Below are positions 5,615 through 10,861 of a stretch of 54,999 nt of DNA, piece by piece. The notes beneath the pieces are model-generated. The model saw nothing but the letters and a program-made list of their open reading frames with translations. It ran no database searches and had not been told where the DNA came from. The stretch lies in the IMG/VR virus record IMGVR_UViG_3300042885_000900. One strand, 5' to 3'. The translations under genes were made by a program, and so were the position numbers. The DNA is from a virus. Its lineage: Duplodnaviria; Heunggongvirae; Uroviricota; Caudoviricetes. How positions within the stretch are numbered: position 1 is the first letter of the stretch; every line of letters begins with the position of its first letter.

Positions 5615-5705
5615 GTTGAGAACTCATTTGGGTTGTAGGATATTGTCTTCCTCTTCATCCATTATTTCTTATGGCACTAATTCCTTTCTCAAGGGAACAA
5701 CACAT
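5615..5705 (-). ncRNA. Repeated structured RNA motif, copy 1
   Basis: Conserved 5' and 3' blocks shared with 10776-10861; predicted pseudoknot. Confidence 0.65.
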
Positions 5706-5886
5706 CTACCATTTCTGATAGTATCTTTATGTAAATTTAATTATGGTAAGCAGGGCGCCTGGTATTATCTTCTAGAAGACAGGGACAAACTTATACTCTT
5801 ACCTTTTGGACTATGCCTAGCCACTTTCCCATTTCATTTATAATTAATTTACAAAGGTTCGATGTTTAACCTATTTTATTAGTCCA

Positions 5887-6108
5887 TTAATTAAAAGTTA
5901 TCTGACATTTAGACGCCTTTAACTTTTTATCTAAACTTTTTTTAGCACCAACCTCAATATACCTACGGTTACTATAGTACTTGTGCATTCTCTCACAATG
6001 GGTTGAACAACTTTCTAATCCAACAATTATTAAGAATGAGATGATTGCGATAACATAACTTCTTAAACTACAGACATAAGGTCCGTACAAATCAAACATT
6101 TTTTTCAT
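5887..6108 (-). CDS. Hypothetical membrane or lipoprotein
   Basis: Hydrophobic segment followed by LESC. Confidence 0.6.
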   Translation of the reverse strand: MKKMFDLYGPYVCSLRSYVIAIISFLIIVGLESCSTHCERMHKYYSNRRYIEVGAKKSLDKKLKASKCQITFN

Positions 6109-6119
6109 ATTTTTTATTT

Positions 6120-6305
6120 TTACAAAGATACAATTACATTTCTACTTTTGAGAATTTTTCTTAAAAAAATTAATCTTTCTCTATGATTAGTATATTCATC
6201 CTCATCATTAGCTTTATGACCTCTAAATATTGATTCGGTTATCTCACAATCCAATTTAATAATTTCGGTTATAATCTCCTCCGTGGTTAATTTACTTTTT
6301 TTCAT
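6120..6305 (-). CDS. Hypothetical protein
   Basis: ORF in operon-like array. Confidence 0.7.
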   Translation of the reverse strand: MKKSKLTTEEIITEIIKLDCEITESIFRGHKANDEDEYTNHRERLIFLRKILKSRNVIVSL

Positions 6306-6625
6306 ATTTTCTCAAATTCGTCTTCAAATCCGTACCATTCATCACCATTTTCATCTTCGTACCAACATTTGTATTCTCGCTCGTACCGATTCCAATCAAT
6401 TCTTGTTAATTCAACTTCATTTCCCCCATCTTTGTTTTTAACCACTTCACCCACTTGGAATGCTTGTGGTGCGTAATTGTCGATTGTTTTACTTTGAACA
6501 ATTAAATCCCCAACACTTTTAACCTCATCGGTTTGGATGTTGGTGTAATTTCCTCCGGATGATAATTTCCACCCTTTACTATACAACCAAATCGTAAAAT
6601 CTAAAATCTCTTTTTCTAATAACAT
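6302..6625 (-). CDS. Hypothetical protein
   Basis: Start re-called to MLLEKE, downstream of the promoter motif. Confidence 0.7.
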   Translation of the reverse strand: MLLEKEILDFTIWLYSKGWKLSSGGNYTNIQTDEVKSVGDLIVQSKTIDNYAPQAFQVGEVVKNKDGGNEVELTRIDWNRYEREYKCWYEDENGDEWYGFEDEFEKI

Positions 6626-6657
6626 AATACATCTGTTTTGTGAGGACAAAGATAATA

Positions 6658-6990
6658 CTATTTTTTACCCAATCCTACAATTGTAACACTTTTAATCTTT
6701 TTTTTACCTTTTTTAACCTTTTTTTCAACTTTTGGTTGTGAAGCTCTATTTTGTAACGTCAATACCTTTCTAGTTACTTTACACATTTTTTCTAAAATCT
6801 CTAATGATTCAAGATTCTTAAAGAAAACAGTTAGAAGTTCTTCCGATTCGTCTGAAGAATAAATATTATCACCAATCATTCTTGGTTTTAATAATTTATT
6901 AAAACTAATAAAGGGTGTTTGAGTAATATTCTCAATTCCCGCACCCATAGACAATTCTCCCAATCCCGCAACAACAATACTTTTTTTCAT
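6658..6990 (-). CDS. Hypothetical protein with basic C-terminus
   Basis: Start re-called to MKKSIVV. Confidence 0.7.
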   Translation of the reverse strand: MKKSIVVAGLGELSMGAGIENITQTPFISFNKLLKPRMIGDNIYSSDESEELLTVFFKNLESLEILEKMCKVTRKVLTLQNRASQPKVEKKVKKGKKKIKSVTIVGLGKK

Positions 6991-7047
6991 AATTTTTATA
7001 TATTTAATTTCGACAAAGATAATACAATTTTTTAAACTACCAAACAA

Positions 7048-7443
7048 TTATTCATTTTTTTTCACTATTTCTATTAATTTTTTAAGACATTCTAGTTGTG
7101 CTTGTTCGTAAGAATTTTTATAGCCTATAAAGTTAATAAACATTTTACCCTTACCTAAATTTTTAGTTATTAACCAATCATACTTTTTAAATGTATCGTC
7201 ATCAGATTCTGTAGGAGATGTAAAATATCCATACTTCTCTCTAAACCATCTAAATGCTTGTGAGAATGTTGGTGCTGAGATATAATCATCAATTTCATTA
7301 TTCACATTTCTCATTTTACTATTTATAACCTCTTCTAATATTTCACTTAATTGGTCATTTTTATAGTAAGAAAAACAAGGTTCATCAAACCCTAATTCTT
7401 TTAAAGATAAAGCCAAGGTGTAAGGTATAAATTCTTTTTTCAT
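7048..7443 (-). CDS. Hypothetical protein, paralog of 7446-7802
   Basis: Shared PY.LAL.LKELGFDEPC, SAPT..QAFRWFR.KY and LECLKKLIEIVK blocks. Confidence 0.85.
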   Translation of the reverse strand: MKKEFIPYTLALSLKELGFDEPCFSYYKNDQLSEILEEVINSKMRNVNNEIDDYISAPTFSQAFRWFREKYGYFTSPTESDDDTFKKYDWLITKNLGKGKMFINFIGYKNSYEQAQLECLKKLIEIVKKNE

Positions 7444-7445
7444 AA

Positions 7446-7802
7446 CTATTTTTGTTTTACTATTTCTATTAATTTTTTTAAACATTCAAGTTCTGCTTCT
7501 TCGTGGGTAGTATATTGTTCCATTGAGTCAAAAACAATATTGTCTAATTCATCGTAGATTGGGTTATTATAAAATATCCTATCATTTTCTTCAACACAAG
7601 TTGATGGTGTTTGAGAATATAAATCATACTTCTGTCTAAACCATCTAAATGCTTGTTGATAAGTTGGTGCAGATATCACACAATGTGGCATTTCTTTTAT
7701 CATTAAAAATCCTCCTCCATCTCTATAACCCATACAAGGTTCATCAAATCCTAATTCTTTTAAAGCTAATGCGATTTCATAAGGAACAAAAAGACTTTCC
7801 AT
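7446..7802 (-). CDS. Hypothetical protein, paralog of 7048-7443
   Basis: Same shared blocks; start probably MESLFVPY. Confidence 0.85.
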   Translation of the reverse strand: MESLFVPYEIALALKELGFDEPCMGYRDGGGFLMIKEMPHCVISAPTYQQAFRWFRQKYDLYSQTPSTCVEENDRIFYNNPIYDELDNIVFDSMEQYTTHEEAELECLKKLIEIVKQK

Positions 7803-7929
7803 TCCTTGTTTTTTTACTTCTTCCATTTATAATATTATTAATTGTTGTTACTGATATATTGTAGTATTTAGCAGCTTCTGTTTGAGAATTAAAAACTAAA
7901 TCATCTTCAATACATTTTATTTTTGACAA
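7777..7929 (-). pseudogene. Orphan NUMOD1-like HTH DNA-binding module
   Basis: Hand translation SKIKCIEDDLVFNSQTEAAKYYNISVTTINNIINGRSKKTRNGKSF; no ATG; in frame with the upstream HNH ORF. Confidence 0.6.
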
Positions 7930-7944
7930 AGATAATACTATTTT

Positions 7945-9445: not shown

Positions 9446-9461
9446 TATTTCTATTATTTTG

Positions 9462-9532
9462 TTCCCCACGAAGGTAATGCTCCTTCTTCCCTAATTTAAA
9501 AGATTAGTGCTTCACTTTAAAGCTTGGGGGGA
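9462..9532 (-). tRNA. tRNA-Lys(TTT), non-canonical T loop
   Basis: CTAAT-CTTTTAA-ATTAG; T loop AGCATTA. Confidence 0.88.
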
Positions 9533-9615
9533 TTATTGAGCTCATCTCACTTTCTTATTGAGCTCAAAATATAACTAATTTGAACTTAATAATCAAAGTT
9601 TGTGAGCTACATTTG

Positions 9616-9687
9616 TAGGTACGGATGGAATTGAACCATCGACGACCATTTCATCAGAATGGGCTTCTACCACTGAATTACGTACCT
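9616..9687 (-). tRNA. tRNA-Ile(GAT)
   Basis: CCATT-CTGATGA-AATGG. Confidence 0.92.
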
Positions 9688-9764
9688 AAATTATTGTCGG
9701 GAAAATCGGTTTAGAAACTGACTTTTCAATAATTCAAACATATTTATAGTATATATCTAATACT

Positions 9765-10448
9765 ATGAAACCATTATATTCTACAATAGATTTTGAAAAA
9801 TCTAAATCAACTGATAAATTACCTCTTAAATGTTACCATTGTGAGAATATTTTTTACAAATATAAGAAATATATCAAATTTGAACTAAAAAAACAATTAG
9901 GTGAAGTTAAATTTTGTTCTAAACAATGTTCTAAAGATTATTATAAAAAAACACAATCAATATTTTGTTCTAATTGTAATGTTGAATTTGATAAAAAATT
10001 ATCAGAAATTACCAAATCAAAATCTGGAAATCATTTTTGTTCTCAATCTTGTTCCGCAACTTTTAACAATAAAAATAAAACTCACGGGAATCGTCGTTCC
10101 AAACTTGAAATTTGGTTAGAAGAACAACTTACCATCATATACCCTAATCTTCAAATTGATTTTAATAAAAAAGAAATAATCGGGTCTGAATTAGATATTT
10201 ATTTCCCGTCACTTAACCTTGCAATAGAATTAAATGGTATATTTCATTATGAACCGATTTATGGTGTTGATAAGTTAAATAAAGTTCAAGAAAACGACAA
10301 ATCTAAAACAAAGATATGTCACGACTTAAAAATTGATTTATGTATTATCGATGTTTCACAACAAAAATATGTTAAACCATCAACATCCCAAAAATACCTT
10401 GATATTATTATTAATATTATTAATGAACGTAATCAATTATTTTGTTAG
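9765..10448 (+). CDS. Putative free-standing endonuclease (Cys zinc-binding repeats plus DUF559/Vsr-like PD-(D/E)xK domain)
   Basis: CYHC/FCS..C repeats; ELDIYFPSLNLAIELNGIFH. Confidence 0.8.
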   Translation: MKPLYSTIDFEKSKSTDKLPLKCYHCENIFYKYKKYIKFELKKQLGEVKFCSKQCSKDYYKKTQSIFCSNCNVEFDKKLSEITKSKSGNHFCSQSCSATFNNKNKTHGNRRSKLEIWLEEQLTIIYPNLQIDFNKKEIIGSELDIYFPSLNLAIELNGIFHYEPIYGVDKLNKVQENDKSKTKICHDLKIDLCIIDVSQQKYVKPSTSQKYLDIIINIINERNQLFC

Positions 10449-10520
10449 GGTGACAGGAATCGAACCTGCAGTGATGTCCTGCTTCCAATGCAGGCGACTT
10501 ACCAATTAGTCTACACCCTA
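10445..10520 (-). tRNA. tRNA-Pro(TGG)
   Basis: CCTGC-ATTGGAA-GCAGG. Confidence 0.9.
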
Positions 10521-10534
10521 ATATATTTTTTCTG

Positions 10535-10621
10535 CGGAGAACAAGGGAATCGAACCCTCACCGGGTTTACCCGGAACATCTTAGCAGGATGCTACTACGA
10601 GCCAATATTAGACTACTCTCC
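10535..10621 (-). tRNA. tRNA-Ser(GCT)
   Basis: GCATC-CTGCTAA-GATGT, long variable arm, G73. Confidence 0.92.
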
Positions 10622-10695
10622 AATTCGTAGGATATCACTTAACCTACCAGGTTTTACCCATTAAATCATATAAATGACCCAAGACGATTTTTTTG

Positions 10696-10767
10696 TGTCC
10701 CCAGGAAGAATCAAACTTCCACCTTAATATCCGTAGTATTAAATTCTATTCGTTAAACTATGGAGAC
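10696..10767 (-). tRNA. tRNA-Arg(ACG)
   Basis: TAATA-CTACGGA-TATTA. Confidence 0.88.
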
Positions 10768-10775
10768 AATTTGAG

Positions 10776-10861
10776 GTTGAGAACTCCTCTGTGTTGTATA
10801 TACCTATCCTAATAGGATTATTATATCTTGTCTCAATTCCCCTCTCACAGGAACAACACAT
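10776..10861 (-). ncRNA. Repeated structured RNA motif, copy 2
   Basis: TGTGTTGT/ACAACACA helix, TTCC-[TGAGA]-GGAA hairpin, 3' TCTCA. Confidence 0.65.

What the first reader, a model, noticed from the sequence alone, without database searches (positions are those of the whole stretch)
5615..10861. Two copies of an unrecognised pseudoknot RNA motif, 5 kb apart
Seen: both read ATGTGTTGTTCC-nn-TGAGA-nn-GGAATT-[variable 35-40 nt]-TACAAC(A/C)CA-n-A-n-GAGTTCTCAAC on the minus strand. Predicted: P1 GTGTTGT/ACAACAC, a TTCC/GGAA hairpin, and loop TGAGA pairing with 3' TCTCA. Copy 2 sits between a stop codon and the 5' end of tRNA-Arg. Copy 1 has a competing AACCCAAAT/ATTTGGGTT hairpin that would disrupt P1. 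Inference: a candidate self-cleaving ribozyme, riboswitch or processing element; I cannot assign it to a known class.
Basis: partly seen in the sequence, partly recalled or inferred. Interest (0 to 1): 0.72.

Follow-up and report, generated by a model that had tools for sequence, protein, structure and literature searches.

The report
New pseudoknotted RNA in phage tRNA islands
The two look-alike stretches are a long and a short version of a real, very widespread but uncatalogued folded RNA that uncultivated water phages encode among their tRNA genes; its fold is now well supported, its job is still unknown.

Summary
Both copies are on the minus strand at the stated places, where chance predicts none. 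The predicted fold holds in relatives: P1, a short hairpin (H1), and pairing of the H1 loop UGAGAA with a 3' UUCUCA. With P1 and H1 left free in the search pattern, all 7 P1 pairs and 3 of 4 H1 pairs show compensatory changes (96.8% paired, against about 40-50% out of register). The pseudoknot has few compensatory cases but many U-G wobbles.

The copies are two architectures of one family. Copy 1 is the core of a roughly 355-nt ornate RNA (5872-5519). Copy 2 is an 87-nt minimal form (10859-10773) ending 5 nt before tRNA-Arg. Phage genomes carry 1-4 copies, all in the tRNA island on the tRNA strand.

I found no Rfam match, no GenBank phage match, no paper and no conserved partner gene. The family failed the HDV-like ribozyme, riboswitch and T4 rnaD tests. 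The "competing hairpin" is unique to this phage.

My best guess (about 0.5) is a stable RNA released by tRNA-processing enzymes that acts in trans. A ribozyme is not excluded. This scan has reported comparable unnamed kissing-loop RNAs in phage tRNA arrays before; I did not test whether any is the same family.

The parts
5519..5872 (-).
   Evidence: Alignment of 35 long-form members. RNAalifold independently recovers Pb, P1 and the base of P4. More than 120 contigs carry this form.
5855..5872 (-). 5' hairpin (AGGU/ACCU) with a conserved loop, UAAACAUCGA here and UAAACAUUGA in the consensus
   Evidence: The stem changes between relatives while the loop stays: GG/CC, GUGG/CCAC, AGUG/CACU, CUCG/CGAG (read by eye).
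5730..5853 (-). Helix Pa (UGUAAA at 5853-5848 with UUUACA at 5735-5730), which encloses a variable insert
   Evidence: Compensatory variants in relatives: GUGAAU/AUUCAC and GUGAAC/GUUCAC (read by eye).
5706..5721 (-). Hairpin Pb (CUAUCA-GAAA-UGGUAG) with a GNRA-type tetraloop
   Evidence: RNAalifold predicts it, and all 6 pairs have changes on both sides.
5698..5704 (-). P1 5' strand of copy 1 (UGUGUUG)
   Evidence: It pairs with 5629-5635. In this copy one pair is a U-C mismatch. In the family all 7 pairs covary.
5681..5697 (-). Hairpin H1 of copy 1 (UUCC / GGAA) with loop CUUGAGAAA. UGAGAA at 5691-5686 is the 5' strand of the pseudoknot.
   Evidence: Three of 4 stem pairs have double changes. 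The loop is nearly invariant.
5636..5680 (-). Variable arm P2 of copy 1
   Evidence: In relatives the length and sequence vary freely (25-100 nt) between invariant flanks.
5629..5635 (-). P1 3' strand of copy 1 (CAACCCA; consensus CAACACA)
5617..5628 (-). Linker AAUGAG followed by the pseudoknot 3' strand UUCUCA (5622-5617)
   Evidence: These columns are invariant.
5519..5614 (-). 3' domain: hairpin P3 (5613-5581), hairpin P4 (ACCCU at 5579-5575 with AGGGU at 5528-5524, plus an internal loop), and the tail GCUAA
   Evidence: P4 has compensatory variants: ACCUUAA/UUAAGGU, GCCCU/AGGGC and UCUAGGCUCA/UGAGCUUAGA.
10773..10859 (-).
   Evidence: The covariance model scores it 70.7 bits, E 2e-12. The minimum-energy fold gives P1, H1, P2 and H3.
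10853..10859 (-). P1 5' strand of copy 2 (GUGUUGU)
   Evidence: It pairs with 10791-10797.
10837..10853 (-). Hairpin H1 of copy 2 (UUCC / GGAA). The loop holds UGAGAG at 10847-10842.
10791..10797 (-). P1 3' strand of copy 2 (ACAACAC)
10773..10789 (-). 3' hairpin H3 (GAGG / CCUC). Its loop carries UUCUCA (10783-10778), the partner of the H1 loop.
   Evidence: The fifth pair covaries (A-U, G-C, U-A), and one GAGG-to-GGGG change is matched by CCUC-to-CCCC.
10695..10767 (-). tRNA-Arg(ACG), which starts 5 nt after the short form
   Evidence: ARAGORN and Rfam. A 4-7 nt gap, most often 5, is typical of the family.

Best explanation
Both copies are genes for members of one large, uncatalogued family of phage RNAs. 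The family shares a compact pseudoknotted core. A 7-bp helix P1 closes a junction that holds a 4-bp hairpin H1 and a variable arm P2. The invariant H1 loop (CUUGAGAAAG) pairs through UGAGAA with an invariant UUCUCA that lies 7 nt beyond P1. Copy 1 is this core inside a roughly 355-nt multi-domain RNA. Copy 2 is the bare core, capped by a 3' hairpin that presents UUCUCA in its loop.

Shown: the fold, the two architectures, the wide distribution, the confinement to tRNA islands on the tRNA strand, and the ordinary tRNA-to-tRNA spacing.

Inferred: the RNAs are made as part of the tRNA polycistron. They are freed as discrete stable RNAs by the enzymes that process the neighbouring tRNAs: RNase P cutting at the 5' end of the downstream tRNA, and 3' trimming back to the terminal hairpin. 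They then act in trans, with the invariant pseudoknot core serving as the recognition surface for a conserved host or phage partner that is not yet known.
For: The fold rests on several results. P1 has all 7 pairs with double changes, H1 has 3 of 4, and 96.8% of cells are paired against 39-50% when slid. The pseudoknot has double changes at 4 of its 6 pairs, in only six cells, plus 12 U-G at its first pair. G-U variants of P1 point to the RNA level rather than DNA. RNAalifold independently finds Pb, P1 and P4.

The family is large.

The context fits a gene in the array. Elements are always on the tRNA strand. Of 126 distinct short-form contexts, 67 have a tRNA-type RNA 4-7 nt downstream and 26 have a tRNA-type 3' end 3-5 nt upstream, the same spacing as between tRNAs in these arrays. 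Each phage genome holds 1-4 copies, all within a few kb.

The long form is followed by a tmRNA, a tRNA or unrelated ORFs. That argues for a stand-alone RNA rather than a leader. No terminator follows either copy.
Against: No expression or end-mapping data were available, so release as a discrete RNA is inferred. No partner is identified: no protein family recurs next to the RNA, the best cluster being present in 15 of 92 loci. By my own geometric reasoning, the short form may be strained. H1 and H3 are joined to a 7-bp P1 by linkers of 0-1 nt, so an intramolecular loop-loop helix may not fit; it could instead form between molecules, or H3 could open. The invariance of about 25 core nucleotides would also suit a catalytic or ligand-binding pocket.
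Confidence: 0.5

Rival explanations
1. It is a cis-acting leader or spacer of the tRNA operon. The folded module sits just 5' of a tRNA or tRNA-like RNA. It helps that neighbour fold, sets up RNase P cleavage, or protects the 5' end of the precursor, and is then discarded.
For: 53% of short-form copies have a tRNA-type RNA starting 4-7 nt downstream, most often 5 nt. The window's copy 2 is 5 nt from tRNA-Arg. For many copies my script found no tRNA-type 3' end just upstream (96 of 126), so some could lie near a transcript start.
Against: The 5-nt gap is simply the usual gap between genes in these arrays. The same core sits inside a 355-nt RNA that is not consistently followed by a tRNA. Tandem copies occur with no tRNA between them (L009, L023, L031, L034). 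About 25 invariant nucleotides is far more than a protective hairpin would need.
Confidence: 0.2
2. It is a new class of small self-cleaving ribozyme that cuts the tRNA polycistron, comparable in role to the HDV-like theta ribozymes found next to phage tRNAs.
For: The fold is compact, with P1 and the pseudoknot crossing in the same order as P1 and P2 of HDV-like ribozymes (the topology comparison is from my own knowledge). The invariant nucleotides are concentrated in the loop, the linker and the pseudoknot. It lies in phage tRNA arrays, where the theta ribozymes were reported (PMC10879173, title and abstract). When P1 and H1 are left free they vary in sequence, as ribozyme helices do.
Against: No ribozyme family of Rfam matches even at E<=10. 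The 7-nt linker has no conserved C: it is AAAUGAG in the long form and AGAGGA(C/G) in the short form. The arm in the position of HDV P3/L3 is freely variable. The outer P1 pair is U-A or C-G, not G-U. Distances to flanking tRNAs are the ordinary array spacing, so no cleavage site is implied.
Confidence: 0.12
3. It is a riboswitch or other ligand-sensing regulator of downstream expression.
For: It has a conserved pseudoknotted core of aptamer size with invariant unpaired nucleotides. In the window an ORF starts 13 nt after the long form.
Against: There is no terminator or start-site-sequestering platform. Downstream are tRNAs, a tmRNA or unrelated ORFs at varying distances. No gene family recurs downstream.
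Confidence: 0.03
4. It is a DNA-level element, such as a recombination or mobility site of tRNA gene cassettes, and not a functional RNA.
For: The same element variant, with an identical variable arm, is found beside different neighbours in different contigs (L042, L045, L049, L051, L063, L065). This shows shuffling within arrays.
Against: Pairing is maintained through G-U, which has no meaning in duplex DNA. The element always has the same orientation as the tRNAs. Nested, crossing complementarities with compensatory changes are what an RNA tertiary fold predicts. No recombinase or endonuclease recurs next to it.
Confidence: 0.03

Closest known systems
Phage T4 small stable RNAs, species 1 and 2 (rnaC 139 nt, rnaD 119 nt)
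   Same: They have the same genomic setting and presumed biogenesis. They are small structured RNAs of unknown function encoded inside a phage tRNA cluster, on the tRNA strand, a few nt from tRNA-Arg (annotation).
   Different: They are not homologous. The model's best hit on T4 is weak (15.6 bits, E 0.017 over 6 kb) and rests on UUCCCUGAGUAAGGAAUU in T4 itself. In VR20, RB14, ECO4 and JS98 the GGAAUU half is not kept, and GAGUAAGG pairs with CCUCUUAC as part of one long nested hairpin. There is therefore no H1 and no pseudoknot of this kind.
GOLLD and ROOL large ornate RNAs of phages
   Same: They are phage-encoded, lie near tRNA islands, are intricately folded with pseudoknots, and have no known function (PMC12286853). 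GOLLD occurs in one of the same contigs (L065). In those RNAs, contacts between copies build RNA-only cages, which is a possible parallel for the complementary loops here.
   Different: There is no match to the Rfam models of any family (which include GOLLD and ROOL) at the element. This family is much smaller (87 nt and about 355 nt, against 600-800 nt). Nothing is known about whether it forms multimers.
HDV-like (theta) self-cleaving ribozymes next to phage tRNAs
   Same: They are also small pseudoknotted RNAs beside phage tRNA genes (PMC10879173). The order of crossing helices is the same: P1 5' strand, pseudoknot 5' strand, hairpin, P1 3' strand, pseudoknot 3' strand.
   Different: This family has no conserved catalytic C, no conserved P3/L3 or P1.1, and no G-U at the start of P1. 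It has an extra stem (H1) around the pseudoknot strand. Rfam gives no hit.

Membership tests
Any Rfam 15 family | A covariance-model match at or near the family's gathering score | tested here: not met
   The only hits in the window at gathering score are tRNAs. At E<=10 over 5300-11200 nothing overlaps either copy. The same holds for relatives L013, L057 and L060 at E<=5 and for 24 further loci at gathering score.
HDV-like / theta ribozymes | A nested double pseudoknot in which P1 and P2 cross | tested here: met
   P1 and the loop-to-tail pseudoknot cross in the same order. This is a match in topology only.
HDV-like / theta ribozymes | A conserved catalytic cytosine in the strand leading into P2 (own knowledge of the family) | tested here: not met
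   The linker is AAAUGAG in the long form and AGAGGA(C/G), or shorter, in the short form. No C is conserved.
HDV-like / theta ribozymes | A short conserved P3/L3 with P1.1, and a G-U pair at the cleavage site (own knowledge of the family) | tested here: not met
   The arm in that position varies from 25 to 100 nt with no conserved loop. The outermost P1 pair is U-A, C-G or A-U.
HDV-like / theta ribozymes | Self-cleavage in vitro | not testable with these tools
   This needs a transcription and cleavage assay.
Riboswitch (generic) | A conserved aptamer followed by an expression platform in front of a regulated gene | tested here: not met
   No terminator-like site follows either copy. Downstream are tRNAs, a tmRNA or unrelated ORFs. 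No gene family recurs.
T4 rnaD (species 2 RNA) | Shared sequence and secondary structure | tested here: not met
   The model hit is weak (15.6 bits). Alignment of five T-even rnaD genes shows the resemblance is confined to T4 and that the region forms a different, nested helix.
T4 rnaC/rnaD (as a kind) | A small non-tRNA RNA gene inside a phage tRNA cluster, on the same strand, at tRNA-like spacing | tested here: met
GOLLD / ROOL | A match to the family model, and a size of 600-800 nt | tested here: not met
   No Rfam family, GOLLD and ROOL models included, matches at the element. GOLLD is found elsewhere in L065.

The most novel reading that the evidence does not exclude
The invariant pseudoknot core is an active site or an assembly interface. 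Either it is a new class of self-cleaving ribozyme with an HDV-like crossing topology that cuts phage tRNA polycistrons, or the complementary loops (UGAGAA and UUCUCA) pair between molecules so that the RNA builds RNA-only multimers, as GOLLD and ROOL do.
Probability: 0.15. Interest if true: 0.85.

Novelty: new variant of a known kind. Interest (0 to 1): 0.62.

Why it matters
Phage tRNA islands are emerging as reservoirs of elaborate RNAs whose functions are unknown, among them the T4 species 1 and 2 RNAs, GOLLD and ROOL. This family is among the more tractable examples. It is small, at 87 nt in its minimal form. It is abundant, with hundreds of freshwater and some marine phage contigs. Its fold is well determined, and its invariant core of about 25 nucleotides is sharply defined. 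That makes it a ready substrate for cleavage assays, probing, pull-downs and structure determination. A covariance model could also annotate a stretch that is currently read as empty intergenic space, or as spurious small ORFs, in many large phage genomes.

Tried and rejected
- **Protein coding.** An ATG starts a 40-aa frame in copy 2, but the frame runs into tRNA-Arg, and copy 1 shifts frame and stops after 16 codons. An apparent ORF end reading NIVLFP* into the element in several loci is not an ORF. It is the 3' part of another ~170-nt RNA.
- **Known RNA families.** Five Rfam searches gave no hit at the element.
- **Cultured phages.** There was no blastn match to 50,697 GenBank phage records.
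- **Literature.** No paper or preprint holds the core sequence string. The supplement of the 10,006 viral csRNA paper is not held as text.
- **Host assignment.** In the species genome collection only 4 of 120 pattern hits were real, all on MAG contigs. The rest are at chance expectation for 16 specified bases.
- **Conserved partner protein.** Clustering of ORFs within 2.5 kb of 92 long-form loci found none. The largest clusters are frames inside the RNA itself.
- **T4 rnaD homology.** Rejected.
- **RNA ends or circular forms.** In the metagenome collection all contigs are 1 kb or longer and look like DNA assemblies, so nothing could be learned.
- **Technical.** A fuzzy-regex scan timed out and one literature query was malformed.

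
Full report
**What is in the window.** The window comes from a 115-kb IMG/VR virus record. It is AT-rich and carries 21 tRNA genes on the minus strand in its first 12.5 kb, plus a DnaK-like gene whose nearest relatives are huge uncultured phages. Each half matches twice on the minus strand and nowhere else, and shuffles give zero matches even with three mismatches allowed. Copy 2 (10859-10773) lies between a TGA stop and tRNA-Arg(ACG), which starts 5 nt later. A protein-coding reading fails, because the two copies do not share a frame and the 40-aa frame of copy 2 runs into the tRNA.

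**It is a large family.** An exact search of IMG/VR with the 5' half found 66 contigs. So did a scan of public metagenome contigs, which includes some marine assemblies. A covariance model built from 75 short-form members found 103 matches in 80 sources. In the window it found only the two copies, at 70.7 and 52.6 bits. Whole phage records carry 1-4 copies, all within a few kb of each other. No GenBank phage has it. In a collection of species genomes, only 4 of 120 pattern hits were real, all on MAG contigs.

**The fold is real.** Sequences fetched with the conserved strands fixed are almost invariant and therefore say little: 96.7% are paired, with few double changes. I therefore fetched members with patterns that leave a given helix free.

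- With the H1 loop and the 3' tail fixed (alignment A6, 120 sequences), all seven P1 pairs show changes on both sides. Examples are GUGUUG/CAACAC replaced by CGUGAG/CUCACG, AUGCAG/CUGCAU, GUAUUG/CAAUAC and CUAUUG/CAAUAG. An additional outer pair switches between U-A and C-G. Three of the four H1 pairs also covary. Overall 96.8% of cells pair, against 39-50% when the partner is slid by 1-3 columns.
- With P1 fixed and H1 plus the pseudoknot free (A4, 92 sequences), all four H1 pairs covary. The pseudoknot has double changes at four of its six pairs. They occur in only six cells, for example loop UUAGAA with tail UUCUAG, and there are also 12 U-G wobbles at its first pair.
- P1 variants that keep pairing only through G-U (for example GCGGCAC opposite GUGUUGU in L097) show that the constraint acts on RNA, not on duplex DNA.

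The truly invariant nucleotides are the H1 loop CUUGAGAAAG, the 7-nt linker after P1, and UUCUCA.

**There are two architectures.** The two copies are not equivalent. Copy 2 is the minimal form: P1, H1, a variable arm P2, and a 3' hairpin H3 (GAGG/CCUC) whose loop carries UUCUCA. The pseudoknot is therefore formally a loop-loop contact, and the minimum-energy fold reproduces these helices.

Copy 1 is the core of a longer RNA that spans about 5872-5519. That RNA has the following parts:

- a 5' hairpin with the conserved loop UAAACAUUGA;
- a helix Pa around a variable insert;
- a hairpin Pb with a GNRA-type loop;
- the core;
- an optional hairpin P3;
- a hairpin P4 with a conserved internal loop;
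- the tail GCUAA.

RNAalifold, run without guidance, recovers Pb (all six pairs covary), P1 and the base of P4. The "competing" AACCCAAAT/ATTTGGGTT hairpin exists only because this phage has an A-to-C change in P1. None of 72 other long-form members has a complement of 7 nt or more there.

**Context.** The elements are always on the tRNA strand inside tRNA arrays. Among 126 distinct short-form contexts, 67 are followed at 4-7 nt (most often 5) by an RNA with a perfect 7-bp acceptor stem and a T-loop. In 26, a tRNA-type 3' end precedes the element at 3-5 nt. This is the ordinary gene-to-gene spacing of these arrays. The element therefore behaves like one more slot in the array.

About half of those downstream RNAs are unusual. 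They keep the acceptor stem AGUCAGG, the D-arm and the T-arm, but have 40-100 variable nucleotides in place of the anticodon arm. The long form is followed by a tmRNA, a tRNA or unrelated ORFs. No protein family recurs nearby, and neither copy is followed by a terminator.

**Comparison with what is known.**

- Rfam 15 has nothing at the element, even at E<=10, and no paper in the library holds the core sequence.
- HDV-like theta ribozymes, reported next to phage tRNAs (PMC10879173), share the crossing order of P1 and the pseudoknot. The family lacks a conserved C in the linker, a conserved P3/L3, and a G-U at the start of P1.
- A riboswitch is unlikely because there is no expression platform and no recurring downstream gene.
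- T4 rnaD gave a weak model hit (15.6 bits, E 0.017) because T4 has UUCCCUGAGUAAGGAAUU. Alignment of five T-even rnaD genes shows that this stretch is not conserved and pairs differently. The resemblance is therefore one of setting, not of descent.
- GOLLD and ROOL share the setting (PMC12286853; GOLLD in L065), but neither their models nor their size match.

**How it most likely works.** The fold, the two architectures, the distribution and the array-like placement are shown. The rest is inferred. I think the RNAs are transcribed with the tRNAs and cut out by the tRNA-processing enzymes, with RNase P at the downstream tRNA and exonucleases trimming back to H3 or P4. They would then persist as stable RNAs whose invariant core is recognised by a conserved partner. 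I give this about 0.5.

A discarded cis-acting leader or spacer (0.2) fits the 5-nt spacing. It does not fit the long form, the tandem copies, or the depth of conservation. A new self-cleaving ribozyme (0.12) cannot be excluded by computation. A riboswitch or a DNA-level element is unlikely (0.03 each).

One open structural point comes from my own reasoning. In the short form H1 and H3 are tied to the two ends of a 7-bp P1 by linkers of 0-1 nt, so a straight 15-bp loop-loop stack may not fit within one molecule. The contact may be bent, H3 may open, or the loops may pair between molecules.

**Novelty.** This scan's notebook already holds several reports of unnamed kissing-loop RNAs in freshwater phage tRNA arrays. 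One of them, e1-5669156, may be the same family, but I could not compare the sequences. Outside the scan I found no description. It is a new RNA family of a known kind: phage tRNA-island RNAs of unknown function.

Noticed in passing
L004:4669-4764, L018:3441-3543, L067:7405-7504, L016:10332-10489, L068:10736-10878, L042:270-394 and 511-665: These are tRNA-shaped RNAs with a conserved acceptor stem (AGUCAGG/CCUGACU), D-arm and T-arm, but with 40-100 variable nucleotides in place of the anticodon arm. ARAGORN misses them and Rfam's tRNA model scores them weakly. They often alternate with the short-form element in arrays.
   Followed up: partly
L007:4420-4593, and the equivalent stretch directly upstream of the element in L014, L028, L037, L042, L057 and L066: A further conserved RNA of about 170 nt, closed by UUGAUAGUG...CACUAUCAA, with visible compensatory changes. 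It directly abuts the short-form element and has no Rfam match. It may be one of the ~165-nt tRNA-array RNAs noted earlier in this scan.
   Followed up: no
L013:180-505, L008:1142-1462, L065:1184-1598, L014:6127-6189: The same phage RNA islands also encode a tmRNA (two contigs, one about 45 nt after a long-form RNA), a GOLLD RNA and a freshwater-1 RNA, all at Rfam gathering scores.
   Followed up: no
window 589-666 (minus strand): ARAGORN calls a tRNA with a four-base anticodon (taat) and no assigned amino acid. Rfam scores it 45.9 bits as a tRNA. The close relative L031 (1614-1691) has the same gene.
   Followed up: no
L028, L037, L042, L056, L057, L066, 5-25 nt upstream of RNA starts: The motif GTTCTTTGAA recurs shortly upstream of the ~170-nt RNA and of some short-form elements. 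It may be a phage-specific promoter element. This was seen by eye only.
   Followed up: no
window 25094-26968 and 39622-41082 (minus strand): The phage encodes a DnaK (Hsp70)-like protein, 58-67% identical to genes of huge uncultured phages of more than 600 kb. It also encodes a thymidylate synthase that, at 486 aa, is well above the 335-position PHROG profile it matches.
   Followed up: partly
window 5260-5559 (minus strand): The listed 99-aa ORF starts at a GTG inside the 3' domain of the long-form RNA. An in-frame ATG at 5505, 13 nt after the RNA, is the more likely start if the ORF is real.
   Followed up: no
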